Source: a virus
Strand: one strand, 5' to 3'
Length of the DNA: 64,000 nt
Virus record (IMG/VR): IMGVR_UViG_3300047368_000327
Location: 39,643 to 103,642 of that record
Shown: positions 39,270 through 64,000 of the stretch, one piece after another
Layout of the letters: every line of letters begins with the position of its first letter
How positions within the stretch are numbered: the first letter of the stretch is position 1
Program-made: the position numbers and the translations under genes
Notes under the pieces: model-generated
Database searches by the model: none
What the model was told of the DNA's origin: nothing
What the model saw: only the letters and a program-made list of their open reading frames with translations

Positions 39270-39602
39270 GTGACCCAAACTGAAAAAAAGAAAGTTATAG
39301 AAAAATTAACCGACCCACCAAAGACCCAGAAGAGACTTTTTTGGGCTAGGGAAATTAAATCTCTCAATATATTGCTTGAATCTTATCCCGTAGATTTATT
39401 TTGGAAAGGGTTATCTTTTCCTAAAAAACTAGACAGTCTAATACTACTACGTTCTGGATATTACGCAGACCAACTCAAAAAAAAATACAATAGATTTAAT
39501 TACAAAATACCTCCTCCCAACAATATAGAATTAGGGAAAAAGACGGGCAAAGATTACAAAAAAGAAAATAAACCAAAAAACATTAAAGATTTCTTATCAT
39601 GA
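39270..39602 (+). CDS. Hypothetical basic protein
   Basis: 110 aa; overlaps recA by ATGA. Confidence 0.65.
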   Translation: MTQTEKKKVIEKLTDPPKTQKRLFWAREIKSLNILLESYPVDLFWKGLSFPKKLDSLILLRSGYYADQLKKKYNRFNYKIPPPNNIELGKKTGKDYKKENKPKNIKDFLS

Positions 39603-40720
39603 GTAAAAAAGCAGAAACAGAAACGGGATCAATTGATTCGCTAAAAAGTTTTCTAAAGCAGAACGAAGAGCACCACTACAACTACGAAGAAGACATAGAT
39701 TATAAAGTGTCTTGCGGTAGCCTTAAAGTAGATTTCGAGCTTGGAGGTGGACTAGGGCCTGGACTTCATCGCTTTGTCGGAATAAACGAAGGAGGCAAGA
39801 CTTCCGAAGCCCTTGAAGTGACAAAGAACTTCCTTAAAATGCCTAAGTCAAAAGCTGTATACATAAAAGCAGAGGGTAGACTATCTGGAGAGGTAAGAGA
39901 GAGGTCTGGAATAAAATTCGTAACGTCAGAAGATGAGTGGTCACAAGGAACCTGCTTTGTATTTGAGTCCAACATATACGAGACCGTATTAGACTTAATG
40001 AGGGTATTGATTGCTAAAACCCCGGAAGCTATTAAATATTGCTTTGTGTTAGACTCGCTAGATGGCCTGATAATGAAAGATGACTTAAAGAAAAACTTTG
40101 AAGATTCTCACAAGGTTGCCGGAGGAGCCCTGCTGGGTGCAAAGTTTATGCAAAAGATGAGTATCGCTCTTGCAAAGAGAGGCCATATGGCTATATTCAT
40201 ATCTCAAGTCCGCGCAGACATTAAGCTTGACCCCTACAGCAAGGCGCCAATACGGCAAACTACAGCTACAGGGGGCAATGCATTACTTCACTTTGCGAAT
40301 TACATACTTGAATTTGAGCCAAGATTCAAGAAAGACTTAATATTAGAAAATCCTAGCGCACCAATGGATCACAATAAAAATAAGATCATTGGTCATGTTG
40401 CAAAAATGACCGTCAAGAAATCTCCCAATGAAAAAACGAATTATGTTCTCGAGTATCCAATAAAATATGGGCGCAAGAATGGCACATCTATATGGGTTGA
40501 AAAAGAGTTGATAGATATGCTTTATCTTTGGGGCTACATAACCAAGAAGGGGGCATGGATATCGGTTGACGAAGACTTCGTCTCAACCCTAAAGAAGGAA
40601 GGGTATGAATTTCCTGTCAAGTTCCACGGGGAACCTAAGATCAATGACTTGCTCGAAACAAACACAGAGCTTAGCCAATTCTTAATTAAACATTTTTCAG
40701 AAATAATTTATCAATCTTAA
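39599..40720 (+). CDS. recA: RecA/UvsX-like recombinase
   Basis: G....D..LGGG, G.NEGGKTS (Walker A), AEG, VLDSL, IFISQVR, GGNAL.H and I...GAW. Confidence 0.88.
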   Translation: MSKKAETETGSIDSLKSFLKQNEEHHYNYEEDIDYKVSCGSLKVDFELGGGLGPGLHRFVGINEGGKTSEALEVTKNFLKMPKSKAVYIKAEGRLSGEVRERSGIKFVTSEDEWSQGTCFVFESNIYETVLDLMRVLIAKTPEAIKYCFVLDSLDGLIMKDDLKKNFEDSHKVAGGALLGAKFMQKMSIALAKRGHMAIFISQVRADIKLDPYSKAPIRQTTATGGNALLHFANYILEFEPRFKKDLILENPSAPMDHNKNKIIGHVAKMTVKKSPNEKTNYVLEYPIKYGRKNGTSIWVEKELIDMLYLWGYITKKGAWISVDEDFVSTLKKEGYEFPVKFHGEPKINDLLETNTELSQFLIKHFSEIIYQS

Positions 40721-44040: not shown

Positions 44041-45098
44041 AAGAAATAACCCCATTGTCAGCAAGTAGAATTAAAACCGCCCAAAGTTGCTCTTGGAAAT
44101 ACTGGGCTACCTACAAGCTTAAAGTTCCCGATGCGGGAAATGATGGCTCGAGCAGAGGCTGGATATGCCACTTAATATTTGAGCTTCTTGGCGAACCAAA
44201 ACATAGAGATATTTACGACGAAGTTATTTTAAAAGATTCGATATACCTATGTGAACCAATAAGAAGGCTTGTGTCCTATCACGCCAAAAAGCTAAATGTA
44301 AATGACAAAGATAACCTCGAGTTGATCAACAATATGACTTTAGCGGGATTGCATTTTGATTTCTTCGGAGGAGTGGGCATGAGTGATCCAGACGAAGGAA
44401 TATCAGAACAAGCATTCGACATTACAGTCGATGAAGGTCAAAAACTTTACAGGCTAAGAGGCTTTATCGACAAACTGTTCCTTTACGAAGATGAAAGTTT
44501 GGCCATCATTAGAGACTTCAAGAGTAGCAAGCAAATATTTAAAGGTAAAGAGTTGACAGACAATCTTCAGGATTTTTTGTACACGCTTGCAGTTAAAAAA
44601 TTATTCCCCCATTTCAAAAAGAGACAAGTTGAGTTTTTGTTTTTAAAATTTGATTTAAATTCTAACGGACGTGTCAAAATGAACGACATTTCCGAGGAAG
44701 AGCTGGAGGGCCTCGAGTTTCACTTGACAGAAATACAAAAATTTATCGATAACTTCGACGAGGAAACTGCTGAATCTAATTTTGCTGGAGCCCAAGGGTA
44801 TCCATCAGACGGAACCTTTGGTGGCCCTTTAATGTGCGGCAAGGATGGCTATAAGATATCTAGAGGCCAGCCTGTATTGGATAAATCAGGAGAGCCGATA
44901 GTTGCTTATATTTGCCCCCACAGGAAGCCTTTAGACTACTATGTTCTAAAGGATGATTCTGGAAAAATAATCAAGTCTGCCTTTAAAGACAGTAAAGATT
45001 CCTTGATTGCAGAAGAGGGTCAAACCGTAGAGTTAATGAAGTATGCTGGGTGCCCTTATTGGAACAAGCCTAAGACCGAAATAGACGACTTCTTTTGA
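44037..45098 (+). CDS. PD-(D/E)XK exonuclease (RecB/AddB/Cas4-like)
   Basis: LSASRI..C.W.Y, G..CH...E, LRGFIDKL, IRDFKSS, Q...Y and C-terminal Cys residues. Confidence 0.82.
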   Translation: MKEITPLSASRIKTAQSCSWKYWATYKLKVPDAGNDGSSRGWICHLIFELLGEPKHRDIYDEVILKDSIYLCEPIRRLVSYHAKKLNVNDKDNLELINNMTLAGLHFDFFGGVGMSDPDEGISEQAFDITVDEGQKLYRLRGFIDKLFLYEDESLAIIRDFKSSKQIFKGKELTDNLQDFLYTLAVKKLFPHFKKRQVEFLFLKFDLNSNGRVKMNDISEEELEGLEFHLTEIQKFIDNFDEETAESNFAGAQGYPSDGTFGGPLMCGKDGYKISRGQPVLDKSGEPIVAYICPHRKPLDYYVLKDDSGKIIKSAFKDSKDSLIAEEGQTVELMKYAGCPYWNKPKTEIDDFF

Positions 45099-46610: not shown

Positions 46611-47438
46611 ATGACAATTCCTATATTTAAAAGCCATTACTCTATCGGAAAGAGTATTCTAACTCTGTCTCCAGCAACCGTTTCTGCAAGAAATGGAAGT
46701 GCTTCTTCAGATAACGACGTAAAGGAGTCTTTGGTTGATGGTCCTTGCAGTATTTTTGATATAGTTAAGGAGAACAATCTAAAGCAGATAGTCCTAGTTG
46801 AGGACTCCCTGATAGGATTCCTGCAAGCCCAGAAGGTGGCCAAAGAATTAGACGTACAATTGATCTATGGAGTTCGCTTTGATATTTGCGAAGACGCTTC
46901 AGACGAAGAAGCAATAAAAGAGTCAAAATGCAGTCATAAAATAATTATATTTCCGAAAAACGGAGAGGGATGCAAAGACTTAAATAAGATCTACACAGAA
47001 TCTAAAACTAAATACCACAACCACCTCGACATGAAGCTATTAAAGTCACTGTGGAATGAAGATAACCTTTCTCTAGCTATACCATTTTACGATTCTTTTA
47101 TTTTCAAGAACATGACTTCGTTTAATTCCTGCGTATTAAGCTTCAACTTCACTAAGCCAACTTTCTTTACAGAACAAAACGGATTGCCTTTTGATTCTAT
47201 AGTTCTGGACGCAGTAAATAAATACTGCAAGGCTAACAAATTTGATACACAGCAAACTCAATCTATTTATTATAAAAATAAAGAAGACTTTCCCGCCTAC
47301 CTAACCTATAAGTTAATATGCTCTAGAGGTTCTTTTGCAAGCAGGCAGTCGTCTTTAGAAAAACCAAACTTTGATCATTTAGGCAGTGACCAATTTTGCT
47401 GGGAGAGTTATAAAGAAAAATACATGGAGGAACTATGA
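46611..47438 (+). CDS. Stand-alone PHP domain of DNA polymerase III alpha (N-terminal part of a split DnaE)
   Basis: FKSHYSIGKS, ED...GF, LIYG, KN.EG...L.KI.T and YY....D follow the DnaE PHP layout; most metal ligands appear substituted. Confidence 0.78.
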   Translation: MTIPIFKSHYSIGKSILTLSPATVSARNGSASSDNDVKESLVDGPCSIFDIVKENNLKQIVLVEDSLIGFLQAQKVAKELDVQLIYGVRFDICEDASDEEAIKESKCSHKIIIFPKNGEGCKDLNKIYTESKTKYHNHLDMKLLKSLWNEDNLSLAIPFYDSFIFKNMTSFNSCVLSFNFTKPTFFTEQNGLPFDSIVLDAVNKYCKANKFDTQQTQSIYYKNKEDFPAYLTYKLICSRGSFASRQSSLEKPNFDHLGSDQFCWESYKEKYMEEL

Positions 47439-48076
47439 AAGAAGGACTATTAAGATTTGATAAGAGACAGAAATATATGGTTTTTGATTTTGAAACTTGT
47501 AATTTAAATTTGGTATCCAAAGACAACAAGCCATGGCAACTAGCATTCTTGATTTATGAAGGAGACAAGCTTGTAGAATCAAACGATTATTATATTTATT
47601 GGGCTGATTTAAAAATGTCAGAAGGCGCCAGAAAAGTGACCGGATTTAAAGACGCCGTCTACAGGAAGAAGGCTATAGCGGCGAACAAGGTATTGGATCA
47701 TTTTGAAAAGTATCTCTACGATGATTCCTACATAAAGCTGGGACATAATATTTTTGGTTTTGATATATATATTCACAATATATTCAGGAAGCTTCTAGGA
47801 AAGAAGACAGACTATTCTTATTTAAATAAATGCATAGACACACTTTCAATAGCAAAAGCTATAGCTAAAGACATAAAAATGAACAAAGAAGACGATTTAT
47901 TATCTTGGCAATTCAAATTAAATTCTATATATGAAAGGGGGCTGAGATTAAACTTGGGCGCCTGCTGCAAACAATACGAAGTAGAGCTTGATTCAAGCAA
48001 ACTACATGACGCCCTTTATGATATTCAAAAAAACTACCAAGTATTTAAAAAAATGTTATGGAAAATAGAGCTATGA
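47435..48076 (+). CDS. DEDDh 3'-5' exonuclease (DnaQ/epsilon-like)
   Basis: ExoI FDFET, ExoII GHNIFGFD, IDT and ExoIII HDALYD. Confidence 0.88.
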   Translation: MKEGLLRFDKRQKYMVFDFETCNLNLVSKDNKPWQLAFLIYEGDKLVESNDYYIYWADLKMSEGARKVTGFKDAVYRKKAIAANKVLDHFEKYLYDDSYIKLGHNIFGFDIYIHNIFRKLLGKKTDYSYLNKCIDTLSIAKAIAKDIKMNKEDDLLSWQFKLNSIYERGLRLNLGACCKQYEVELDSSKLHDALYDIQKNYQVFKKMLWKIEL

Positions 48077-48309
48077 ACTTACTAAAAGATATTGATTCGG
48101 TTTTAGATATTTACGAAGAGGAAATAAAAAAACTCAAAGAACAAACAAGCTCAGTAGCTCAAGATTTTTTATCAAAATCAAAAAGCTATTGGTCTGAAAA
48201 TTTATTAGAATTCTCTGCACTGGTAGACAAATTACTAGAAATACAGAACGCAAGAAAGTCACTAGACGATTACAAACAGGACGCAATCTTATCATTAAAT
48301 CATGAATAA
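48073..48309 (+). CDS. Small helical hypothetical protein
   Basis: 78 aa, coupled by ATGA overlap, lying between the exonuclease and the DnaE core. Confidence 0.6.
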   Translation: MNLLKDIDSVLDIYEEEIKKLKEQTSSVAQDFLSKSKSYWSENLLEFSALVDKLLEIQNARKSLDDYKQDAILSLNHE

Positions 48310-50878
48310 TTTTTTAAATCAATTTTCTAATTATGAAGGCTCGGCTCCTCCTGGCGTTCGCCTACCAGAAATCAAGATAACTAAAGCCAACTACAAAAGC
48401 TTAAAACTTGATGAAAATACATCTAATTTTGATTTTCTTAGAGAGCTTTGCTTACAAGGAGTTAAAGAAAAAGGAATAGACAAACTATCTAATAAAAAAG
48501 AATACTACAATAGAGTAAAAGAAGAATTAAAAATTTTAAAAGAGTTAGGTTTTATAGATTATATATTATTAAATTGGGACATTCTTGATTTTTGTCACAA
48601 GAGCGGTATACCTACTGGGCCCGGAAGAGGGAGTGCGGCTGGGTCTCTTGTTTTATTTTTAATTGATGTTACAAAAATTGATCCAATTAAATATGGTCTT
48701 TTCTTTGAGCGCTTTGTAAGCAAAAGCCGAGCTAAAAAGACAGAGAAAGACGGAGTAACATATCTTGACGGAAGCCTTCTTGCAGATGTAGATAATGATA
48801 TCGCCTACGAACATAGAGATAAGGTTATCGAGTACATTGAGCAGAAATATCCAGGCAGAACAGCTAAAATTCTGACTCTCAATACTTTAAGTAGCAAGCT
48901 TTGTATTAGAGAATGCGGCAAGATAGTCGGGAATTATTCCGAGATGGATATAAATGTTGTTACCGCACACATACCAAAAACATTCGGAAAAGTCTCAAGC
49001 ATAGAAGACTCTATTGAGAATAGTGATAAGTTTAAGGAATGGGCCGAGCAAAACTTGGAAATTATTTCGATTGCCAAAAAGATCGAGGGGCTTAATAAAA
49101 ACTCGGGCGTACATCCTTCTGGAATAGCAATCTCTTATGATGAATTGATTAACTTCTGTCCGGTCCAGACAGCTAACGACGGATCGCTTGTCACCGGTTA
49201 CGATATGAATTGGGTTTCTGAATTGATGGTTAAATTTGATATCTTGGGTTTAAGAACTCTAAGCGTCATATATAACACATGCAAAGAGGTGAAGCTAGAC
49301 CCAATGGACATTCCTTTAGATAAAGATGAAACTTACTACCCCTTAGCTGAACTGGAATGTCCACATGGCTTATTTCAAATAGAGGCTAGCACAAATTTCA
49401 GCGTATGCAAGAAGATTAAGCCTCGCACTCTTGAAGAACTTAGCGCTGTCATCGCTATCGCAAGGCCAGGGGCTCTTGATTTTGCCGGAGATTACTCTGA
49501 GTATGTGAGGTCTGGAGAATTTCAAAGCGTTCATGAAGTTTTTGATGAAGAGCTTAGTTATACAGGGGGCATACCATTATACCAAGAGCAGTTAATGAAG
49601 ATGGCTGTAAAAATAGGCTTCACCTTAGATGAGTCTGAACAGCTTAGACGTATAGTCGGAAAGAAAAAAGTTGATCAAATGCCTGAATGGAAGCAGAAGA
49701 TAGAAGCTAAGGTCATCGAAAATAGCTTGCCAGTAGAAGCGGGAGATGTACTGTGGAAAGTTGCAGAAGATAGTGCTAACTATTCTTTTAATAAGTCTCA
49801 CTCAATTGCATATTCAACTCTTGCGGCATGGACTATTTATTTAAAGTTCAACCATCCTCAGGAATTCTTTTTGGCCCTCTTAAAGATGACTCACTCTGAG
49901 CCTACTCCGCAGGCAGAGGTATCCAAAATAAGCCAAGAACTTTCTAGGTTTGATATAAAACTATTGCCTCCTAATCTATTGAAGTCTAAAATGGATTTCT
50001 CAATTGAAGGTAAAAATATAAGATATGGATTGAGCAGCATCAAAGGAATTAGTGACAAATCATTAGAGTCATTAAGAAAATTCAGAAATGAAGATAGTTC
50101 TACAAAATTTGATTTATTTTTGGCAGCCAAACAAGCAGGCTTAAATATCGGAGTCTTATCTGCCCTAATACAGGCCGGAGCATTAAGTGACGATCTTAGC
50201 GCTGATAGGTCAAAATTGGTTTTAGAAGCTCAATTATTCAACATACTGACAGACAGAGAGAAAAGAAACTTTATAGCTCTGTCCGAACAAGAATCTATTG
50301 ATTTATTTGATATATTCAAAAGAGTTACTGAATCTGAGTTTAAGGCTGTCGGAGATGACGGCAAACCATTAATGAAGGAATCTAGATACGGAACACTAAA
50401 GAAAAAGTATGGCCCCTACAAGGACATATACTACAAGAATAGCAAGAGTCAAGATTTCGCAAATTGGTACTTTGAGAAAACCTTATTAGGTTTTAGTTAT
50501 TCGTCTCATTTGTCTGAAGTATTCAAACATCAAACAAAAAAGCCCCAAAATTCTTTGCACTTTAAGTCGCTAAGTCCAAGGGAATCCGCCAAGTACATAT
50601 TTTCAGTATCCTTCTCTAAGAAAGAAAAGTCAAGAAACGGAAATCTTTATATAAAATTAGAGCTTGAAGATGAATTTGGGTCCGTAGACGCAATTCTATG
50701 TGACACAGCAAGAGAGAAAAAATGCACAGCTTACCTAGAAAACAATCAGGTGCCAAAAGAAGGCAGTATCATTACCTTGCATGGAGATAAAACAAATGAT
50801 GGGGACGCCATTTTTGTAAACAACATGAAAGTAGTTGACGAAATGATTTACATGAATCTGAAAGATTTAAAGGTATAG
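48302..50878 (+). CDS. dnaE: DNA polymerase III alpha catalytic subunit lacking the PHP domain
   Basis: GPGRGSAAGSL, LFFERF, DVDND, HPSG, KFDILGL, RPG, YQEQ.M, YSFNKSH, IRYGL..IKG and a C-terminal OB fold (LEDEFG). Confidence 0.93.
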   Translation: MNNFLNQFSNYEGSAPPGVRLPEIKITKANYKSLKLDENTSNFDFLRELCLQGVKEKGIDKLSNKKEYYNRVKEELKILKELGFIDYILLNWDILDFCHKSGIPTGPGRGSAAGSLVLFLIDVTKIDPIKYGLFFERFVSKSRAKKTEKDGVTYLDGSLLADVDNDIAYEHRDKVIEYIEQKYPGRTAKILTLNTLSSKLCIRECGKIVGNYSEMDINVVTAHIPKTFGKVSSIEDSIENSDKFKEWAEQNLEIISIAKKIEGLNKNSGVHPSGIAISYDELINFCPVQTANDGSLVTGYDMNWVSELMVKFDILGLRTLSVIYNTCKEVKLDPMDIPLDKDETYYPLAELECPHGLFQIEASTNFSVCKKIKPRTLEELSAVIAIARPGALDFAGDYSEYVRSGEFQSVHEVFDEELSYTGGIPLYQEQLMKMAVKIGFTLDESEQLRRIVGKKKVDQMPEWKQKIEAKVIENSLPVEAGDVLWKVAEDSANYSFNKSHSIAYSTLAAWTIYLKFNHPQEFFLALLKMTHSEPTPQAEVSKISQELSRFDIKLLPPNLLKSKMDFSIEGKNIRYGLSSIKGISDKSLESLRKFRNEDSSTKFDLFLAAKQAGLNIGVLSALIQAGALSDDLSADRSKLVLEAQLFNILTDREKRNFIALSEQESIDLFDIFKRVTESEFKAVGDDGKPLMKESRYGTLKKKYGPYKDIYYKNSKSQDFANWYFEKTLLGFSYSSHLSEVFKHQTKKPQNSLHFKSLSPRESAKYIFSVSFSKKEKSRNGNLYIKLELEDEFGSVDAILCDTAREKKCTAYLENNQVPKEGSIITLHGDKTNDGDAIFVNNMKVVDEMIYMNLKDLKV

Positions 50879-50888
50879 GTGTAATAAA

Positions 50889-53303
50889 ATGAGTATGGAA
50901 ACATCACCGAACTTTACGCCTAAGTGCCAACAGATTATATCTGATTCTAAATTACTAGCGGAAGCGTGGAACCATGAAGAAGTTACCTGTGGACACTTAT
51001 TGGTATCAATCTTGTCCTCAGAGGCTAGTTTTATAAACGACTTAATAAGGGGGTTTAATCTAAAAATTGATTCATTTATCAAGTTCACTGAAGATTTCTA
51101 TTTTTTAGAAGAGAGGCCAGAGTATACAGCGGAGCCTTTTTATGGAGACGACTTAAAAGATTTATTGGTTCAATCTCATCAGTTTGCTAAAAAACTAGAC
51201 AATAATTACGTCGGAGTTGAGCATTTGTTTTTCTCCTTCCTTAACGATACACATGGAGTGTGCCATCACTTTTTAAATTCCCACAAGGTTTCTCCATCTA
51301 AAATGCTTGAAGCTTTTTTATTGCTTCTTCAAGACCAGCAGGTCTTCTCGACCTCTAACAGTCAGCTGCCGGGAGAAAAGCAGAAAGAACAGGGTCAACC
51401 ACAGAGGCAATCGCAGGCAGACTCTAACAGCATGCTTGAATCTTTTTGTGTCAACTTAAACGAAGTCAATCAAAAAGGCTTGATGGGCAAAGTCATAGGA
51501 AAAGATTTTGAAATAGAACGTATTTGTGAAATTTTGGGGCGAAAAATTAAAAACAACCCACTGCTAATTGGCGATCCAGGAGTAGGAAAGACTGCGGTGG
51601 TAGAGGGTTTAGTTCAGAGAATAGGCGAAAACAGAGTACCTCCATTTTTATTCGGAAAGAAAATCTACTCAGTTGATTTGGCGTCCATGATTGCTGGAAC
51701 AAAATATAGAGGGCAATTCGAGCAAAGAATAAAAGCCTTAATAAATGAGTGCGCAGAGATTAAAAATGTAATTTTATTTATCGACGAAGCTCATACGGTT
51801 GTTGGCGCTGGAAGCGCAGAAGGCACTATGGATGCCGCAAACATATTAAAACCTGCGTTAGCAAGAGGAGAGCTTACAGTTATAGGTGCAACTACTTTTC
51901 CGGAGTATAAAAAGAATATAGAAAAAGACATTGCCCTAGTTAGAAGGTTTGAAAATGTTATGGTTGATGAGCCTTCGCCCGAAGAGACCTTCAAAATATT
52001 GAAAGGAATCAAGCCTGCCTACGAAAAGTTTCACGGAGTGTCTTACCCAAACCCTATATTAAAGAAGATAGTTTCTCTATGCGAAGATTATCTTCCTGGC
52101 AGAAAGTTCCCTGATAAAGCTATTGACATGCTTGACGAGTGTGGGGCAAAATTAAAAATAAAAAACTCCATGCCGTCTAAAGAAATGATGGATCTTGAGT
52201 CTCGAATTTACGACTTAAGCCCCCAAAAGGTAGGTTCAAAAATTGAAAACGAAATGGTCGATTCATATTGTGAACTAAGTGAAGAATGGCAGAACTCAGC
52301 AAGAAAAAATGTCAGCGAAAACGATCTTTTAGAATGCCTCTCTTCTAAAACGAAAGTTCCTAAAGAAAATTTCGAGCATTCAAAGGATGATAAACTATCA
52401 AATTTAGGTAGAAAATTAAACAGAGAGGTGGTCAATCAAAAAGATGCAATTTCAAGCATACATAAATCAATACTTAGATTTAAATTAGGGCTAAAAGATT
52501 TAAATAAACCAATTGGCTCTTTCTTATGCTTAGGGGCTAGCGGGGTAGGCAAGACTTGGACTGCTAAGATGATTGCCAAACACTATTTTGGCTGTGAAAA
52601 AAACATTATACGTTTTGACATGTCTGAATATTCCGACAAAGTTTCCTCGTCTAAGCTTACTGGCGCTTCTCCCGGATATGTTGGTTACGAAGAGGGAGGG
52701 GTTTTAGTTGAAGCTATAAAAAAGAAACCTCATTGCGTATTATTATTTGATGAAATCGAAAAATCTCACTCAGAGGTACAACAGTTGTTGCTTCAGATTC
52801 TAGAAGAAGGAGAGATTGAAGACAATGTCGGTACTAAAGTTTATTTTAAAGACACTATTATTATACTTACTAGTAATATTGGCTCTGAATTAACCACAAA
52901 AAGCTCTCTGGGATTCTCCCCTATGCCAGTATCAAACGATGAAAAAATCTACGATACTGCAAAAAAGATACTAAGCCCAGAATTAGTTAACAGATTAGAC
53001 TCAGTAATAGTATTTAATCATTTAAAACAAGAACACTTATATAAAATATTTAAATCAGAAATAAGAAAATTATCTTCTAAATTAAAAAAACAAAATATAC
53101 TATTAAATATATCAGAAGAGGCTGGCAAGTCTATCTGCGAGCAGGCTGCTGAAGAAAAGATGGGCGCAAGACCATTAAAAAGATTAATAAAATCACAAAT
53201 AGAGGATCCAGTAGTAGAATATTACTTTAAAAATCAATCCAAAAAACAAATAAAATTTAATCTATTCCTACAGGCAGACACAATAAAATATAATATAGAT
53301 TAA
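50889..53303 (+). CDS. clpC: ClpA/ClpC-family AAA+ chaperone/unfoldase
   Basis: Two Clp-N repeats; NBD1 [12 protein letters not shown] with pore loop GTKYRG; NBD2 [15 protein letters not shown] with GYVGY; LGF ClpP-docking loop; GARPL. The start may be the Met at 50895. Confidence 0.9.
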
Positions 53304-57624: not shown

Positions 57625-59559
57625 ATGGGTGCCTTCGAAGATTATGTAAACGCAAATTTAGGAATAAGAAAACCTCTTATAACTGACTCAGGCCTTCCCT
57701 CTCAAAGCCCGAAGGCTGCAGGTATAATAGGCTCTCAATACGTTGACAGCGACACCTACTTTCTTTACGAGAAGACTGGCGAAGACAACGCGCTTGATTG
57801 GGTAAAAATAGCTGACTTGGGTCAGTCAAGAGGTGGTGAACCTGGAGGAGGAGACGGCTCAGTTCAATTTAATAGCGGTGATTCTTTTGGAGGTTCTGAA
57901 GGTTTAATCTATGACAGAGATTTAGGTTTATTAAGTGGAGAAAGTGGTCGTTTTGATTATCTTCACTCTGATTATTTTACTGGTCAAACAGGGCACTTTT
58001 TAGAAGAAGTGATAGTTGGAAATCCAAACTTACCAAGCTCAGAAGATGTTTTTGTTGTTGAAAATGGAGATATTACAGCTGCCGGTAGTGCCAACTTTTC
58101 TGGTTCACTAAAAGCCCCTACTGGATACTTTAACGAACTAATTGTATCTGGCGACGCTCATATTTCTGGCGACCTTCACGTCAAAGGCACAACTTATGTC
58201 CATGAAATAGTTGACACTACTGTTTCGGGAACAGTGAGTGGTTATACTGGGATCTTTAACACTTCTAGCGGCAAAACCGGATCGTTTACTGAATCTTTAT
58301 TGATTAGCGGCGAGCCAGTCTTAACTGGATTTGAGATTCCAGGAGGTGGAGCCGTTATAGGTGGAGATGTAAACAACATCGACTTCGGAGGAACAGACCC
58401 TAACGATTTTCGTAATATAAATTTTCAACAGGGTGGCGAGAACGTCATGGTTATTGACCAAGACGGTGATGTCAATATACAAAACGACCTTCATGTTTCA
58501 GGAAATATTAGCGGCGATATTATTAGCGGAAAGACTGGTGTATTCACTGAAACTTTATTGTCGGAGAATACTTCAGGCAACAATGCCTCATTTACGACCT
58601 CTTTACTTATTAGCGGAAAGCCAGTCTCAACAGGTGCAGGGGGCACAGTAGGAGGCCTTCCTGTTGTTGGTGGAGACCAAGACAACATTGACTTCGGGGG
58701 AACTGAGTCAGGAGATTATCGCCCAATTAATTTCCAGCAGGGCGGAGAGAACGTAATGGTTATCGACCAAGGCGGCGATGTCAATATACAAAACGACCTT
58801 CATGTTTCAGGAAATATTAGCGGCTCAACCGGTTACTTCAATGAGTTAAATGTTAATGGAGTAAACATAGAAGACGGCCTTTCTTCACTGTCTGGAGATA
58901 TTGAAACTCTTAGCGGCGAAGCCTTAGCGAGTTTTTCTGCCCTTTCTGACGATCTCGACGCGACTGGACAAAGTTTATTAAATAGCCGAAGAGATTATCC
59001 GGTATTGACTGGAGTAGAATTCGATCAATCAACTAACATATTATCCTTTTTCAGGGATTTTGGCGCAACAAATATAGATATCGACTTGTCTTCTTTAGCT
59101 GGAGGAGGATTAACCTATCAATCCACTTTATGGTGGGAAGAAAACAACCAAAACCTAACGTTATTAAATGAAGAAACGAACACATCCTTTCCCGCTACCC
59201 AATTATTTGAAGAATCTGGGGTAAATGCTTATGCGCCAAGAGAAGAAACCTTGAGTTCCAATAATGAAGCTGCTCAATACTTTGAAGAAACCGGCGTAGA
59301 TGTAACAATAAGAGAGTCTTCTTATCTGCCTCCAATTAATAATTCAGCAGTATCCACCCAATGGTTTGAGGATGTCGGCTCAGAACAATTAGCTGTACGG
59401 GACACTTTTCTTAATACAAGTAATCCAGCGATTCAATTATGGGAATCAACCGGGTCTAATCAATATACTCCCAGGTCAGAGCCCTACAGTTCAAATAATG
59501 AGTCTGCTCAATATTTTGAAGAAACAGGAGACGGACGACTAACTACAACTATAAATTAA
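57625..59559 (+). CDS. Repetitive virion/fibre protein, paralogous to 53348
   Basis: Shares a duplicated module; GSVQFN.G.SFGG motif; C-terminal repeated Q(W/Y/L)FEE.G units. Confidence 0.7.
   Translation: MGAFEDYVNANLGIRKPLITDSGLPSQSPKAAGIIGSQYVDSDTYFLYEKTGEDNALDWVKIADLGQSRGGEPGGGDGSVQFNSGDSFGGSEGLIYDRDLGLLSGESGRFDYLHSDYFTGQTGHFLEEVIVGNPNLPSSEDVFVVENGDITAAGSANFSGSLKAPTGYFNELIVSGDAHISGDLHVKGTTYVHEIVDTTVSGTVSGYTGIFNTSSGKTGSFTESLLISGEPVLTGFEIPGGGAVIGGDVNNIDFGGTDPNDFRNINFQQGGENVMVIDQDGDVNIQNDLHVSGNISGDIISGKTGVFTETLLSENTSGNNASFTTSLLISGKPVSTGAGGTVGGLPVVGGDQDNIDFGGTESGDYRPINFQQGGENVMVIDQGGDVNIQNDLHVSGNISGSTGYFNELNVNGVNIEDGLSSLSGDIETLSGEALASFSALSDDLDATGQSLLNSRRDYPVLTGVEFDQSTNILSFFRDFGATNIDIDLSSLAGGGLTYQSTLWWEENNQNLTLLNEETNTSFPATQLFEESGVNAYAPREETLSSNNEAAQYFEETGVDVTIRESSYLPPINNSAVSTQWFEDVGSEQLAVRDTFLNTSNPAIQLWESTGSNQYTPRSEPYSSNNESAQYFEETGDGRLTTTIN
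58183..58707 (+). repeat. ~525-bp near-identical duplication, copy 2
   Basis: Matches 53861-54385. Confidence 0.9.
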
Positions 59560-59623
59560 TATAGAAACAATGTCTTGATGCGTGTAATATATAAAAAATA
59601 ACCTTTTAAATAAAAAAAATACT

Positions 59624-61660
59624 ATGGCTACTAAAAATTTAATACCAAGAGGAAGCGGAGAAGGAGGAATAGGAATTACTGATACAGTATGGGGCTATGG
59701 CTACTACGACACCGGAAATTTCAACAAAGGCTTGTTTGTAAGCGGCAAGAACATTGACGAGGTAATTGCAGATGCGGTTGCAGGTGGCGGACTTGGAGGA
59801 GTTTGGAATGCTGGTGCTGGCGGAATTATTTATTATAACGGCGGCAATGTAGGTATTGGTACTACGAGTCCTGATGGTACATTAGAATTAAATAGCAGCA
59901 GTACTGATACTAACTTTTATATGGGCGGTACTCCAAGTGTTGGCACAAGAGAGCCTTGGAGGTTTCAAGCTGAAGGAGATAATTTATCTATAGGTCAAGT
60001 TAAAAGTAGTTTTGCTAAATATATGACCTTTTCCGGCAGTAAAGTAGGTATTGGCACTACGGACCCTCAAGACGCATTGCATATTAAAGGAGACGATAAA
60101 AGAATGTTCATCGGAAGTGATGATTATAATTTATTTTCCTTAGGAAGACGAAGTTCTACGCAGCTTGATACAGCATACCTGACAATGCAACACGAAGGAA
60201 CTCAAACTGTGGCTATAGACGCATCAGGCTCCACCTTTTTCAACGGCGGCAGCGTAGGTATTGGTACTGCGAATCCTGGTGCAACTCTCCAGGTTAAAGC
60301 AAGTGATGATTCTGCGAATGCATTGGCTTTCTGGGTAGTAAATAAGGCTCACAATAATTCAATTATTTCTGCATATGAAAATGGTGATGTGTCACTTGGT
60401 ACATTGACCTACAAAGATGCATCAGGCAATGTAGGTATTGGTACTGCGAGTCCTGTTTTTGCAAAATTGCAAATTGAAGGTAGCAGTAATGCTACCCGAG
60501 TAGGCTTATTAATAGGTGACGCAGTAGGTCGTGCATCTTCGATTCACCAGGAAGGGAATTTTTTGAAAATTGACGATTTTACCGGCAACAGTGCGAGCCT
60601 GATGGCTATTAATACACTTAACGGCAATGTAGGTATTGGTACTGCGAGCCCTGAATGCCCGCTAATGATAAAGGCTGACCCCTCTGGCGATAGCATGTTT
60701 AAAATGTTGGACGAAAGAGCTTATGTTGCAAATGAACCTCGAGCAGGAATTAGCTTTCAGGGTCTTGATTCTGGCGGCAATAGAAGCGCCTTTGCTGGCA
60801 TTGAAGGTTATGGTGCTGGCTCAGGGAAAGGAGGGTTAAGATTTTTATCACGCCCAGTAGCTAGTAGTACTGCCGTCGGAATGGTTTTAAATGAAGATGG
60901 CAATGTAGGTATTGGTACTACGAGTCCTGTTTCTCAATTATCAATTTTAAGAGAGAATTCTGGCGTGGATAGTGGATCGCAAGACACAGCTTTTGCATCT
61001 ATTGAGGTTTTGACTAAAAATACAAGTGCAAGTGTAAACTCAAAAACAGGCTGGCTTACTCAAATTGGATGTTACTCTTTGATGAATGCAAATGGCAACA
61101 TGCCAAGCAAAAACGCCGTGATTGCGGTTTACAAGCACGACGCTAGTGCCAATGAAACTGCATTAATCCGACTAAGTCGATCAGCCGATAGCGCCGAACA
61201 GTATTTTTGGGTTGATAATATTGGAAACCTCAGAACTTCAGAGTCATCTAATAATGCAGGAAGCTCCACTGGCGGCACTGTTGTTGGTACTCAGACTTCG
61301 GACGAGAGAATCAAAAACATTGAAGATTCTTTTGAATACGGTCTTAATGATGTATTAAAGTTGAAACCAATAGCTTTTACCCTTAAGGAGCAAAAAGATG
61401 GCTCGCGTAAACTTGGTTTCGGCGCTCAAAGCACTCGGCCAATTATCCCTGAGTCTGTTTTTGATTCTAACGAATGTATTGATGGTTATGATTCGGACCC
61501 TGAAGACGATTCGGGCGCACGGCAAATTGCAAAAAGCGATCAAACCAAATTAGGCATGGAATACACTCAACTTATTCCTGTCCTCACCAAAGCCATCCAA
61601 GAACAACAAGCGCTAATAGAAGACCTCAAGTCTCGAATTGAAACTTTAGAAAACAAATAA
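59624..61660 (+). CDS. Tail fibre with GNVGIGT repeats and a C-terminal S74 intramolecular chaperone
   Basis: Six VGIGT..P repeats; SDERIK cleavage motif; GF.AQ; LIPVLTKAIQE coiled coil. Confidence 0.88.
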   Translation: MATKNLIPRGSGEGGIGITDTVWGYGYYDTGNFNKGLFVSGKNIDEVIADAVAGGGLGGVWNAGAGGIIYYNGGNVGIGTTSPDGTLELNSSSTDTNFYMGGTPSVGTREPWRFQAEGDNLSIGQVKSSFAKYMTFSGSKVGIGTTDPQDALHIKGDDKRMFIGSDDYNLFSLGRRSSTQLDTAYLTMQHEGTQTVAIDASGSTFFNGGSVGIGTANPGATLQVKASDDSANALAFWVVNKAHNNSIISAYENGDVSLGTLTYKDASGNVGIGTASPVFAKLQIEGSSNATRVGLLIGDAVGRASSIHQEGNFLKIDDFTGNSASLMAINTLNGNVGIGTASPECPLMIKADPSGDSMFKMLDERAYVANEPRAGISFQGLDSGGNRSAFAGIEGYGAGSGKGGLRFLSRPVASSTAVGMVLNEDGNVGIGTTSPVSQLSILRENSGVDSGSQDTAFASIEVLTKNTSASVNSKTGWLTQIGCYSLMNANGNMPSKNAVIAVYKHDASANETALIRLSRSADSAEQYFWVDNIGNLRTSESSNNAGSSTGGTVVGTQTSDERIKNIEDSFEYGLNDVLKLKPIAFTLKEQKDGSRKLGFGAQSTRPIIPESVFDSNECIDGYDSDPEDDSGARQIAKSDQTKLGMEYTQLIPVLTKAIQEQQALIEDLKSRIETLENK

Positions 61661-62657
61661 GAAAGAAAAAATCATGCCAACAAAAACATTAGTACCAAGA
61701 GCAAGCGGTGAAGGAGGACTAGGGGCTACAGACAATGCCTGGGGTCTAGCTTATTACGACACCGGAAATTTCAACAAAGGCTTGTTTGTAAGCGGCAAGA
61801 ACATTGACGAGGTAATTGCAGATGCGGTTACAGGTGGCGGACTTGGAGGAGTTTGGAATGCTGGTGCTGGCGGAATTATTTATTATAACGGCGGCAACGT
61901 AGGTATTGGTACTACGAATCCTTTGAGTAATTTTGTTGTAAGGGGTGGTACAGATAATACTGCTTCTTCTTGCGAAATTAATTCCGGAAATAATAGTGTG
62001 CTAATTAACGCATTACAAAGGGGTAATAATAACTCACCTTCACCTTTAAAATTTTCAGCGGAGCGACACATCTTCTTAGGTAGTACAGGCGGGACAGGTG
62101 GAGACGGCAACGTAGGTATTGGCACTACGAATCCCGAGAGCGTGCTGGAGGTTCGAGGGAAACAAGCATACGCTAATTCAGCAAGTGATTTAGCCACGTC
62201 TGTTACAAAAAGTGCTTTGCGAGTTCGCGGAAGTAATGACTCGAGTGACTCTCTCTGGGTGGGGGTTGAGAATGTATACGCGAATCCATATATACAAGGC
62301 TCAAATGGAGACGGTGGTAATGCAAAAAATATTTCAATTAATCCGTTTGGCGGCAACGTAGGTATTGGTACTACGAATCCTGGTGCTAAATTAGATATAT
62401 CAAGTTCATCTACAAATATTGATATTTTAAGCACTGATGGTGATTTTGTAAATATTAGAAACCAAAATTCTACAACCAACAACTTCTCTTCAATAGGGTT
62501 TTTTGATAGTAGTAATGAATTAACGAGTAGGATTGCTTCTATTAGAGGAACTTCCAACGGGCGTGGTTCTCTAGCGTTTATAAACGGACAAACATCGGAT
62601 GGTTTAAAGGTAGAAATGATGCGTATCACCTCCGACGGCAACGTAGGTATTGGTACT
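59849..62657 (+). repeat. Dispersed 15-bp repeat GTAGGTATTGG(T/C)ACT, ten copies
   Basis: Copies at 59849, 60044, 60254, 60431, 60629, 60905, 61899, 62112, 62358 and 62643, all in frame as VGIGT. Confidence 0.92.
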
Positions 62658-63587
62658 ACGAATCCTATTTTTGGGCTTGATGTAGTAGATACTTCAACCA
62701 TGGTTTTAGGAGGTAGTGATGACGGTCTCGGGAGAACTAATGACTTTGTTAAGTCATCTAGGGTGGGTGGCATCGCTTACGCGAATGCAGATCTCCCAGT
62801 AAATATGATGATGCACGTATCCACTGCTACCGAGAGTCGATTAAATTTTGGATACGGCACTGCTTCTATGAATTTTCCTACCAAAATCATCTTTGGTACA
62901 GCGGCAAGCGTTAACGCTATTTCAAATAATTCGGCTAATATAAGAATGGTTATCGAGGGCAACGGCAACGTCCTTATTGGTGCTACAAGTGCAAGTGCTA
63001 AAACACATATAAAAAATAGTAATGCTTCATTTGGAATTTTAGTAGAAAATAGTAATATTGCATACGGCACTGCTGTTATAGCCCATACTGCAACTTCAGG
63101 CACTCGTTACTTAGTTGATTTTCGTGCTAGTGGTATTGGTGATACTTTCCAAGTAGGAACTATAACAACTGATGGCACTAACACATCATACAATACCAGC
63201 TCAGACTACAGATTAAAAGAAAATGTTGTCGAAGTTGATGATGCAATAGAAAGAGTTAATAAGCTTAAACCTTGTAGGTTTAATTTTATATCAGATCCAG
63301 AAAAAATTGTTGATGGATTCTTGGCTCATGAAGTTCAAGAAGTTGTACCAGAAGCTATTTGCGGAGAAAAGGATGCTGTTGAAGAAAAAGAGTACGAAAT
63401 TACACCAGCGGTATTAGATGATGATGGTAATGTTGTTACTGAAGCCGAAATGGGAACAAGAGAAGTGCCTAAATATCAAGGTATAGACCAAAGTAAACTT
63501 GTACCTCTTTTGACCAAAGCAATTCAAGAACAACAAGCACTAATAGAAGATCTAAGAAGCGAAGTCGAAGCTTTAAAGAACAAATAA
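61674..63587 (+). CDS. Tail fibre with GNVGIGT repeats and a C-terminal S74 intramolecular chaperone (paralog)
   Basis: N-terminus nearly identical to 59624; four VGIGTTNP repeats; SDYRLK; GFLAHEVQ; LVPLLTKAIQE. Confidence 0.88.
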   Translation: MPTKTLVPRASGEGGLGATDNAWGLAYYDTGNFNKGLFVSGKNIDEVIADAVTGGGLGGVWNAGAGGIIYYNGGNVGIGTTNPLSNFVVRGGTDNTASSCEINSGNNSVLINALQRGNNNSPSPLKFSAERHIFLGSTGGTGGDGNVGIGTTNPESVLEVRGKQAYANSASDLATSVTKSALRVRGSNDSSDSLWVGVENVYANPYIQGSNGDGGNAKNISINPFGGNVGIGTTNPGAKLDISSSSTNIDILSTDGDFVNIRNQNSTTNNFSSIGFFDSSNELTSRIASIRGTSNGRGSLAFINGQTSDGLKVEMMRITSDGNVGIGTTNPIFGLDVVDTSTMVLGGSDDGLGRTNDFVKSSRVGGIAYANADLPVNMMMHVSTATESRLNFGYGTASMNFPTKIIFGTAASVNAISNNSANIRMVIEGNGNVLIGATSASAKTHIKNSNASFGILVENSNIAYGTAVIAHTATSGTRYLVDFRASGIGDTFQVGTITTDGTNTSYNTSSDYRLKENVVEVDDAIERVNKLKPCRFNFISDPEKIVDGFLAHEVQEVVPEAICGEKDAVEEKEYEITPAVLDDDGNVVTEAEMGTREVPKYQGIDQSKLVPLLTKAIQEQQALIEDLRSEVEALKNK

Positions 63588-63588
63588 A

Positions 63589-64000
63589 TTGAAAAAAATA
63601 AGAAAAGTCCAAGCCGATTTACCCTCTTCGGCTTCGGAAGGTTCTATGTTTTACAGTAGGGGCTCTCGAAAAGTTCGCATATTTAAGGGCGGAAGCTACA
63701 CAGATTATTCTGCGTGGGAATTTATTCTTGATGATTCAATCGACGTTGACGGAGATGGAATTTTTGATTACGAAGACTCTGATTTAACTGATGGGCCACT
63801 AGGAGATTCTGACGGCGACGGAGTAATTAACAGCCAAGATAATCATCCCGACGATCCAAGTCAATCAGGGGTTGATGCAGATAACGATGGCGTTGATGAT
63901 GCAATTGACACTGATCCAACCGATCCATTAAGTTCTGGACAGGATGCAGATAACGATGGCGTTGATGATGCAATTGACACTGATCCAACCGATCCATTAA
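63589..64000 (+). CDS. Thrombospondin type-3-like Ca-binding repeat protein (partial, runs off the window end)
   Basis: Open frame from TTG 63589 (or ATG 63646): DVDGDG, DSDGDG, DADNDGVDDAIDTDPTDP; exact repeat with a 69-bp period at 63874/63943. Confidence 0.75.
   Translation, partial: MKKIRKVQADLPSSASEGSMFYSRGSRKVRIFKGGSYTDYSAWEFILDDSIDVDGDGIFDYEDSDLTDGPLGDSDGDGVINSQDNHPDDPSQSGVDADNDGVDDAIDTDPTDPLSSGQDADNDGVDDAIDTDPTDPL

What the first reader, a model, noticed from the sequence alone, without database searches (positions are those of the whole stretch)
59849..62657. Nucleotide-invariant repeat separating unrelated tail-fibre modules: candidate cassette-shuffling system
Seen: ten copies of GTAGGTATTGG(T/C)ACT, usually within GGCAAYGTAGGTATTGGTACT(A/G)CGA(A/G)TCCT, are spread over two fibre genes. 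They separate mutually dissimilar in-frame modules with periods of 177-285 bp, all multiples of 3. Synonymous positions are fixed (GTA, GGT, ATT and ACT in 10/10 copies). The same VGIGT peptide in gene 53348 (about 54726) uses different codons (GTC GGA ATA GGT ACA), which serves as an internal control. Inference: the repeat is constrained as DNA and acts as a crossover site that lets modules be inserted, deleted or swapped in frame, a repeat-spacer architecture for diversifying receptor binding. The phage's RecA and PD-(D/E)XK nuclease are candidate catalysts.
Basis: partly seen in the sequence, partly recalled or inferred. Interest (0 to 1): 0.82.

Follow-up and report, generated by a model that had tools for sequence, protein, structure and literature searches.

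The report
Codon-locked recombination joints in fibre genes
Two tail-fibre genes of an uncultured marine phage are strings of protein modules joined by one short motif that is always spelt with the same DNA letters, and related phages have swapped whole modules exactly at that motif, a new example of the known way phages rebuild their host-recognition fibres.

Summary
There are ten exact copies of GTAGGTATTGG(T/C)ACT, all in frame in two adjacent tail-fibre genes and nowhere else in the 103.6-kb virus record. The conserved stretch is really about 30 nt (GGC AAY GTA GGT ATT GGY ACT RCG ARY CCT = G-N-V-G-I-G-T-T/A-x-P). Its synonymous sites are fixed far beyond local codon usage, and it includes the rare codon ACG.

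The peptide motif is widespread in viral fibres and is spelt in many ways. Its spelling tends to be uniform within a lineage (13 of 14 independent loci).

The shuffling reading is supported by comparison with relatives:
- In phages whose backbone proteins are only 42-57% identical, single modules are 86-100% identical in DNA to modules here.
- These shared modules sit in other genes, at other positions, beside unrelated neighbours.
- 60% of internal similarity breakpoints fall in the core ±10 nt, against 12% expected.
- Two near-identical sister pairs, one involving this phage, diverge exactly at a core.

The most likely mechanism is short-homology recombination at the cores. The enzymes are unknown.

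The closest precedent is recombination at conserved motifs in T-even fibre genes (His boxes, glycine-rich motifs). This scan has already reported the same phenomenon on other genomes. It is a new variant of a known kind.

The parts
59624..61660 (+). Tail-fibre gene A (678 aa, P0001): N-terminal anchor, six modules A1-A6, distal domain, C-terminal Peptidase_S74 chaperone
   Evidence: ORF, translation, Pfam PF13884 at residues 559-612, PHROG tail-fibre families
61674..63587 (+). Tail-fibre gene B (637 aa, P0002): same N-terminal anchor, modules B1-B4 (+ decayed B5), distal domain, Peptidase_S74 chaperone
   Evidence: (PF13884 at residues 510-561); S510, D511 invariant and K515 near-invariant in 48 homologues
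59843..59872 (+). Core A1 (30 nt, GNVGIGTTSP). The 88% nt homology between the N-termini of genes A and B ends here, and so does the 96% homology to sister contig L280
   Evidence: (D4)
60038..60067 (+). Core A2 (SKVGIGTTDP; GGC variant)
   Evidence: right end of the 91% match of module A1 to L009 4434-4658
60248..60277 (+). Core A3 (GSVGIGTANP)
   Evidence: left end of the 96% match of module A3 to L009 6956-7167
60425..60454 (+). Core A4 (GNVGIGTASP)
   Evidence: right end of the A3 matches
60623..60652 (+). Core A5 (GNVGIGTASP)
60899..60928 (+). Core A6 (GNVGIGTTSP)
61893..61922 (+). Core B1 (GNVGIGTTNP)
62106..62135 (+). Core B2 (GNVGIGTTNP; GGC and CCC variants). Left end of the 97.5% match of B2+B3 to L009 2111-2674
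62352..62381 (+). Core B3 (GNVGIGTTNP)
62637..62666 (+). Core B4 (GNVGIGTTNP). Right end of the 97.5% match to L009
62964..62993 (+). Decayed eleventh core (GNVLIGATSA), changed in both amino acids and codons
   Evidence: (family D1, 76%)
59873..60037 (+). Module A1 body; 93% nt identical to part of a module of fibre gene R1b of contig 3300046170_000502
60068..60247 (+). Module A2 body; 75-86% nt identical to module 6 of the 1305-aa fibre of contig 3300046171_000267 (L011)
60278..60424 (+). Module A3 body (cluster c1); 97% nt identical to modules in L009 (third fibre gene) and L010, 87% to L246, each with different neighbours
62136..62636 (+). Modules B2+B3 (clusters c4, c5); 95% and 100% nt identical to modules 4 and 5 of the 1337-aa fibre R1a (L009/L072, L248)
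39599..40720 (+). RecA-family recombinase (candidate catalyst, circumstantial)
   Evidence: Pfam PF00154, 46 bits
44037..45098 (+). PD-(D/E)XK nuclease (candidate end-processing enzyme, circumstantial)
   Evidence: Pfam PF12705, 50.9 bits
54725..54739 (+). Control: VGIGT in another fibre-like gene, spelt GTC GGA ATA GGT ACA

Best explanation
The two genes encode trimeric tail fibres with a C-terminal S74 chaperone. The shaft of each is a string of divergent 59-109-aa modules, and each module begins with the peptide G-N-V-G-I-G-T-T/A-x-P. In this phage lineage that peptide is written with one fixed ~30-nt DNA spelling. These identical stretches act as short patches of homology. During co-infection or replication, recombination or template switching starts in one core and resolves in another. 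This exchanges, inserts or deletes whole modules while keeping the reading frame and the protein joint intact. Repeated exchange through the cores keeps their spelling uniform across genes and across phages (concerted evolution). Cores that mutate probably drop out of the exchange pool. Shown here: the codon fixation, the module mosaicism, and the breakpoints in the cores. Inferred: the homology-dependent mechanism, its enzymes, and the effect on host recognition.
For: (1) Ten in-frame cores have fixed synonymous sites, against local usage of 0.04-0.6 per codon. Over 47 related fibre genes and 298 cores, the dominant codons take 78-95% (GTA 81%, GGT 92%, ATT 95%, ACT 91%, rare ACG 82%). Codons just outside the core are mixed, for example AAA 67 and AAG 65. 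(2) The peptide is spelt in many ways across viral contigs, and this 15-mer makes up 4 of 218 copies. Within a locus, codon identity is 0.55 against 0.35 expected from the same ORFs, higher in 13 of 14 loci (p=2e-4). Each lineage has its own spelling. That fits homogenisation within exchange pools rather than one universal recognition site. (3) Single modules are 86-100% nt identical between this phage and relatives, while flanking modules are unrelated and of other lengths. 43 module clusters were found, and at least 20 occur in different neighbour contexts. (4) Backbone proteins of the same relatives are only 42-57% identical, so the modules moved recently and horizontally. (5) 128 of 214 internal HSP ends lie in a core ±10 nt, against 12% for random positions. 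Junction alignments switch from random similarity to ~95% identity at GGCAAY and back right after CCT. (6) Two sister pairs break at cores. L280 is 96% identical to the window on both sides but has another interior in fibre A, starting 3 nt after core A1. One of its modules is 98.7% identical to a module of L009. L246 and L276 are 99% identical for 2.5 kb and diverge at the last base of a core. (7) The homology between the window's own two genes (88% nt) ends at the first core. (8) The same architectures were assembled independently from different metagenomes: L009/L248 at 99% and L252/L262 at 100%. (9) The record has no reverse transcriptase and no serine or tyrosine recombinase. It does have a RecA-family protein and a PD-(D/E)XK nuclease.
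Against: Uninterrupted identity between pairs of cores in the window is only 11-33 nt, median 16. That is at or below the ~23-27 bp usually quoted for efficient RecA-dependent exchange in E. coli (my own knowledge), so each event would be rare or would need an annealing or template-switch route. Because the cores are identical, a crossover cannot be placed inside them. Junctions at the domain boundary could partly reflect selection for foldable proteins. The link between exact cores and sharing is weak (33% against 20%, p=0.018) and comes from loci picked by the exact core. No read-level or experimental evidence was obtained. The lineage codon table is biased by how the loci were found.
Confidence: 0.72

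Rival explanations
1. Passive by-product. Modules are exchanged by illegitimate or any other recombination, and only junctions at the structural joint survive selection. The uniform spelling of the core is merely carried along with recently spread modules (hitch-hiking or gene conversion) and does not itself promote exchange.
For: The peptide is conserved in thousands of fibres whatever the spelling, so the joint is clearly under protein-level constraint. Identity tracts are short. Some lineages show little codon homogeneity (L152, L176, L201).
Against: Junctions are exact to the nucleotide and in register in every case examined. Random joining followed by selection would rarely give this. In the core, synonymous sites are fixed while neighbouring amino-acid-changing sites (T/A, N/S/D) vary. 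Cores flanking unshared modules have the same spelling too.
Confidence: 0.17
2. Recent tandem duplication of one module, followed by fast divergence of the bodies under diversifying selection, with the core unchanged simply because little time has passed.
For: The modules share a head and tail and a common architecture. Some pairs are 34-43% identical.
Against: The bodies differ in length (59-109 aa) and are mostly unalignable. Several have 91-100% identical copies in other genes of phages with ~45% backbone identity. Codons at conserved residues just outside the core are mixed.
Confidence: 0.03
3. Metagenome assembly chimeras formed at the shared 30-mer create the apparent shuffling.
For: All sequences are assembled contigs. 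Co-occurring relatives share the 30-mer.
Against: The same multi-module architectures were assembled independently from different samples at 99-100% identity. A 30-nt repeat is shorter than read length and shorter than the large k-mers used by assemblers (my own knowledge). All mosaics keep a full open frame with proper N- and C-terminal domains.
Confidence: 0.04
4. The core is the target of a dedicated site-specific system (shufflon or invertase, homing nuclease, diversity-generating retroelement), or a functional RNA or translation signal, rather than a homology patch.
For: A strictly conserved short DNA word that includes a rare codon.
Against: All copies are direct, none inverted. The record has no reverse transcriptase and no serine or tyrosine recombinase. 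Other lineages use quite different spellings of the same peptide. No promoter or terminator signal stands out.
Confidence: 0.04

Closest known systems
Recombination between conserved motifs in the T-even distal tail-fibre locus: gp37 'His boxes' and gp38 glycine-rich motifs (Tetart et al. 1996, 1998, as cited in Trojet et al. 2011, PMC3157838)
   Same: Short conserved motifs are repeated inside an otherwise hypervariable fibre or adhesin gene and delimit variable segments. [quoted passage not shown] The outcome is a shared library of interchangeable segments.
   Different: The motif is different (GNVGIGTxxP, not GxHxH or Gly-rich loops), and so is the fibre family (S74-chaperone fibres of uncultured marine phages). 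The units are whole 59-109-aa shaft modules, not loops of the adhesin tip. There are 10-18 joints per genome over two or three paralogous genes. Synonymous sites are demonstrably fixed, with a lineage-specific spelling. No experimental crosses exist.
General protein-fragment mosaicism of phage receptor-binding proteins (Smug et al. 2023, PMC10684548)
   Same: Tail fibres are among the classes most enriched in recent, sequence-level mosaicism between distant phages.
   Different: That work describes the pattern at the level of domains or fragments. It does not describe a repeated codon-fixed joint as the crossover point.
Relaxed homologous recombination by phage recombinases on short or diverged homologies (De Paepe et al. 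2014, PMC3945230; seen, title and abstract only)
   Same: It offers a mechanistic route by which short patches of identity create mosaic phage genomes.
   Different: It was described for Rad52-like recombinases of temperate coliphages and for intergenic or gene-scale mosaics. Here only a RecA-family gene was found, and the joints are intragenic.
Peptidase_S74 (endosialidase-chaperone) tail fibres and spikes
   Same: Both genes end in the S74 intramolecular chaperone domain with the conserved Ser and Lys.
   Different: That family says nothing about the repeated N-terminal modules or their exchange.

Membership tests
Conserved-motif recombination system of T-even fibre genes (works-like comparison) | A short motif repeated within a hypervariable fibre gene and delimiting variable segments | tested here: met
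   Ten cores delimit eleven segments in two genes
Conserved-motif recombination system of T-even fibre genes (works-like comparison) | Natural chimeras whose exchange boundaries lie in or next to the motifs | tested here: met
   60% of internal HSP ends lie in the core ±10 nt against 12% for the null. Junction alignments agree, and so does the sister variant L280
Conserved-motif recombination system of T-even fibre genes (works-like comparison) | Recombinants at the motifs obtained in experimental crosses | not testable with these tools
   Uncultured phage.
T-even gp37/gp38 proteins (homology) | His-box (GxHxH) or gp38 glycine-rich motifs; homology to gp37/gp38 | tested here: not met
   No such Pfam family was hit. 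The motif is GNVGIGTxxP. A PHROG hit to a long-tail-fibre distal subunit covers only the S74 region
Peptidase_S74 chaperone-bearing tail fibres | C-terminal S74 domain above the Pfam cut-off | tested here: met
   PF13884: 25.3 and 40.1 bits against a cut-off of 22
Peptidase_S74 chaperone-bearing tail fibres | Conserved catalytic Ser and Lys of the autoproteolytic site | tested here: met
   S510 and D511 are invariant and K515 is at least 90% conserved in 48 homologues. The SDERIK and SDYRLK strings are visible
Peptidase_S74 chaperone-bearing tail fibres | Homotrimer with self-cleavage of the chaperone | not testable with these tools
The monomer model is poor outside the C-terminus (pLDDT 60)
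Shufflon or invertase fibre switching (Rci, Gin/Cin) | Inverted repeats flanking invertible segments | tested here: not met
   All ten copies are on the + strand, with no reverse matches
Shufflon or invertase fibre switching (Rci, Gin/Cin) | A site-specific recombinase gene | tested here: not met
   No PF00239 or PF00589 match in the 103.6-kb record, which is estimated 73% complete
Diversity-generating retroelement | Reverse transcriptase with a template/variable repeat pair | tested here: not met
   No PF00078 match in the record. Variation is by whole modules, not by adenine-specific substitutions

The most novel reading that the evidence does not exclude
The spelling of the joint is itself under second-order selection. 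Within the viral-collection-wide family of GNVGIGT-type fibres, each gene pool keeps its own fixed 'dialect' of the ~30-nt joint. Sharing a dialect would define which phages can trade fibre modules, even when their backbone proteins are only ~45% identical. The joints would then be an evolved evolvability device with compatibility groups, not just a by-product of exchange.
Probability: 0.3. Interest if true: 0.75.

Novelty: new variant of a known kind. Interest (0 to 1): 0.57.

Why it matters
Tail fibres decide which hosts a phage can attack. How their diversity is generated is central to phage ecology and to engineering host range in laboratory phages. This locus gives a clean natural example in which the crossover points can be read from the sequence: a codon-fixed joint that lets whole modules move between phages as distant as ~45% protein identity. 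The motif is common in uncultured marine phages and each lineage has its own spelling. The joints could therefore serve as markers for mapping which viruses exchange fibre parts in nature, and as natural, frame-preserving splice points for building chimeric fibres. The case also bears on an old question: are phage mosaic boundaries made by homology at conserved linkers, or by random joining followed by selection?

Tried and rejected
- **Codon bias as the explanation.** Rejected.
- **A universal DNA word.** Rejected. The 15-mer makes up only 4 of 218 copies of the peptide in an unbiased sample.
- **Recent tandem duplication.** Rejected.
- **Site-specific or retroelement systems.** No recombinase or reverse transcriptase was found.
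- **Antisense ORFs 61883-62773 and 62777-63103.** No family was hit, so they are taken as spurious.
- **Promoter and terminator scan.** Nothing above background.
- **Solved structures.** No sequence match for P0002.
- **AlphaFold2 monomer of P0002 with 48 homologues.** Mean pLDDT was 59.9 and only the S74 C-terminus is confident. The cores and the strands before them are the best-predicted parts of the shaft, but no fold could be named, and no fold search was run on this weak model.
- **Literature search for the motif string.** It found only unrelated peptides.
- **Cultured phages.** Only the C-terminal chaperone region matched at DNA level. There were two weak protein hits, to Synechococcus phages S-CRES1 and S-CRES2.
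- **Prokaryote genomes.** The 30-mer is absent from the genome-contig collection.
- **Exact cores versus sharing.** The test gave only a weak and sampling-biased signal.
Full report
**Observation**

The 15-mer GTAGGTATTGG(T/C)ACT occurs ten times in the window, all on the + strand, at exactly the coordinates given. Dinucleotide-preserving shuffles give 0.12 matches. There are no further copies in the whole 103,642-bp IMG/VR virus record, of which the window is the last 64 kb.

All ten copies are in frame in two adjacent ORFs, 59624-61660 (678 aa, P0001) and 61674-63587 (637 aa, P0002). Successive copies are 195, 210, 177, 198 and 276 nt apart in the first gene, and 213, 246 and 285 nt apart in the second. 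All these spacings are multiples of three.

It is about 30 nt: GGC AAY GTA GGT ATT GGY ACT RCG ARY CCT, encoding G-N-V-G-I-G-T-(T/A)-x-P. An eleventh, decayed copy (GNVLIGATSA) lies at 62964-62993.

**What the genes are**

- Both proteins end in a Peptidase_S74 intramolecular chaperone domain.
- Both hit several PHROG tail-fibre families.
- The Ser and Lys of the S74 cleavage site are conserved in an alignment of 48 homologues.
- The first 73 residues of the two proteins are 85% identical (88% in DNA). This homology stops at the first core (family D4).

Each gene is therefore an N-terminal anchor, a string of modules of 59-109 residues, a distal domain and a chaperone.

The modules share an ~18-residue head (GNVGIGTxxPxxxLxV) and a short hydrophobic tail. 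Their bodies differ in length and are barely alignable, although a few pairs reach 34-43% identity over 47-58 residues. They are best seen as very divergent members of one repeat type, not as unrelated sequences.

An AlphaFold2 monomer model was poor (pLDDT 59.9) except for the chaperone. The cores and the strands just before them were the best-predicted parts of the shaft.

**Is the DNA conserved beyond what the protein needs?**

Codon shares in the same two genes outside the cores are:

| Codon | Share of its amino acid |
|---|---|
| GTA | 0.35 |
| GGT | 0.30 |
| GGC | 0.29 |
| ATT | 0.60 |
| ACT | 0.43 |
| ACG | 0.04 |
| GCG | 0.12 |

In the cores, GGC, GTA, GGT, ATT and ACT are each 10 of 10. 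The next codon ends in G in 10 of 10, and CCT is 9 of 10. The leucine a few codons later uses six different codons. The amino-acid-changing positions T/A and N/S/D inside the core vary, while the synonymous positions do not. Local codon bias therefore does not explain the fixation.

**Is it a universal DNA word?**

No. A scan of IMG/VR with the degenerate pattern for GNVGIGT returned 117 loci with 218 copies, spelt in many ways. The window's 15-mer accounts for 4 of them.

Within loci, however, the spelling tends to be uniform. In 14 loci from this unbiased sample with five or more cores, the mean pairwise codon identity was 0.55. The expectation from codon usage of the same ORFs was 0.35. Identity was higher than expected in 13 of 14 loci (Wilcoxon p=2e-4). 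Each lineage has its own consensus; for example GTC GGT ATC GGG ACG reaches 0.90 in L210. Homogenisation of the joint within a gene pool is thus a recurrent, though not universal, property of this fibre family.

The window's own 30-nt spelling occurs in 38 viral contigs and in none of 185,579 prokaryote genomes. Over 47 fibre genes and 298 cores from those contigs, the dominant codons take 78-95% of each position. Codons just outside the core are mixed. This set was selected by the spelling, so the percentages are upper bounds.

**Are modules actually exchanged at the cores?**

BLASTN of the window's fibre genes against relatives gives module-sized matches that run from one core to the next:

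| Window module | Window coordinates | Match | Identity |
|---|---|---|---|
| A1 | 59843-60067 | second fibre gene of contig 3300046170_000502 | 91% |
| A2 | 60033-60276 | module 6 of a 1305-aa fibre in L011 | 75% overall, 86% over 110 nt |
| A3 | 60246-60457 | module 3 of the third fibre gene of that first contig | 96% |
| A3 | 60244-60475 | a module in L010 | 93% |
| B2+B3 | 62103-62666 | modules 4 and 5 of that contig's first fibre gene | 97.5% (B3 body 100%) |

In every case the neighbouring modules are unrelated and of different length. The junction alignments show similarity switching from random to about 95% at GGCAAY, and back to random right after CCT.

Clustering all module bodies from the 38 contigs gave 43 clusters. 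At least 20 of them occur in different neighbour contexts or ordinal positions. For example, cluster c1 sits in four different settings, and c8, c16, c6, c2, c3 and c7 behave likewise.

A test that does not pre-cut the genes gave the same answer. Of 214 internal ends of HSPs with at least 85% identity between whole genes, 128 (60%) lie in a core ±10 nt. Random positions give 12%, and that zone makes up 10% of gene length.

**Are the exchanges recent and horizontal?**

Backbone proteins encoded next to these fibres in the relatives are only 42-57% identical to the window's: RecA-like 44%, DnaB-like 57%, the 922-aa sheath-like protein 46%. The shared modules are 91-100% identical in DNA.

Two sister pairs show the process between near-identical genomes.

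- **L280 and the window.** Contig L280 is 95.7% identical to window 59340-59875 and 95.8% identical to 61592-61878. Between these points it carries five other modules. The left break is 3 nt after core A1. One of its modules is 98.7% identical to a module of L009.
- **L246 and L276.** These are 99% identical for 2.5 kb and become unrelated at the last base of a core.

**Are the mosaics assembly artefacts?**

This is unlikely. The same multi-module architectures were assembled from different metagenomes at 99-100% identity (L009/L248 and L252/L262). All mosaics keep open frames with proper termini.

**Mechanism**

The best-supported reading is that the cores act as short patches of identity at which homologous recombination, single-strand annealing or template switching joins modules in frame. 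Continuing exchange then keeps the cores uniform.

The record encodes a RecA-family protein (39599-40720) and a PD-(D/E)XK nuclease (44037-45098). It encodes no reverse transcriptase and no serine or tyrosine recombinase. All copies are direct repeats. Site-specific inversion and retroelement models therefore have no support.

The weak point is the length of homology. Uninterrupted identity between pairs of cores in the window is 11-33 nt, median 16. That is at or below the length usually quoted for efficient RecA-dependent exchange (my own knowledge). Individual events must be rare, or must use a more permissive route. Because the cores are identical, crossovers cannot be mapped within them, and selection for foldable junctions must contribute. 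Modules flanked by two exact cores are shared in another context somewhat more often (33% against 20%, p=0.018), but that sample is biased. Whether the exchanged modules affect receptor binding or only shaft properties is not known.

**Comparison with what is known**

The concept is established for T-even phages. Trojet et al. [quoted passage not shown] 1996 and 1998. Tail fibres are also known to be hot spots of recent fragment mosaicism (PMC10684548).

This case works the same way but differs in several respects:
- It is not homologous to gp37 or gp38.
- The motif, the fibre family and the unit of exchange are all different.
- The number of joints is larger.
- Synonymous fixation with lineage-specific spelling can be shown directly.

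A full-text search for the motif string found nothing relevant.

This scan has already reported the same phenomenon on other genomes, including one with the same Gly-Asn-Val-Gly-Ile-Gly motif. Those notes are unchecked AI notes and are not used as evidence here, but they agree with this analysis, which was made before they were read.

**Verdict**

It is a new variant of a known kind and of moderate interest.

Noticed in passing
window 63151-63550 (query positions 3551-3950): The C-terminal chaperone region of fibre B is 68-78% identical in DNA to tail proteins of cultured Pelagibacter, Methylophilales, Roseobacter, Prochlorococcus and Synechococcus phages of quite different types. The S74 end-module therefore seems to be shared across marine phage families.
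   Followed up: partly
window 62964-62993: A decayed eleventh core (GGC AAC GTC CTT ATT GGT GCT ACA AGT GCA; GNVLIGATSA) at the last module boundary of fibre B. It has changed in both amino acids and codons, as expected for a joint that has dropped out of use.
   Followed up: partly
L280:1-2109 (Ga0181380_1027195): A 2.1-kb contig from a sister phage, 96% identical to the window on both sides of fibre A. Its gene is 537 aa, with five other modules and another distal domain that is ~81% identical to that of the third fibre of contig 3300046170_000502.
   Followed up: yes
L009:2-3637 versus L248 (gene L248-10063): Two 99% identical copies of a 1200-1340-aa fibre gene from different metagenomes differ by the copy number of a ~160-nt tandem unit in the N-terminal part. 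This is a second, slippage-type source of length variation.
   Followed up: no
window 61883-62773 and 62777-63103, minus strand: Long antisense open frames (296 and 108 aa) run through the module array of fibre B. No family was hit, so they are probably a by-product of the Gly/Asn/Thr-rich sense frame.
   Followed up: partly
window 46611-53303: The phage encodes a DnaE-type polymerase III alpha (48302-50878), preceded by separate PHP-like and RNase_T exonuclease genes, and a two-ring ClpB/ClpC-like ATPase (50889-53303). All 59 long ORFs but two are on one strand.
   Followed up: no
window 63589-63999: A 137-aa open frame runs off the end of the record directly after fibre B, with no family hit. 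The record ends here, so further fibre genes could be missing.
   Followed up: no
one search hit list (P0012, P0024, P0037, P0098): Several database proteins match P0002 at 67-96% identity over only 13-22% of its length. These are module-sized patches in otherwise different proteins, which points to a much larger exchange network than the 38 viral contigs examined.
   Followed up: no
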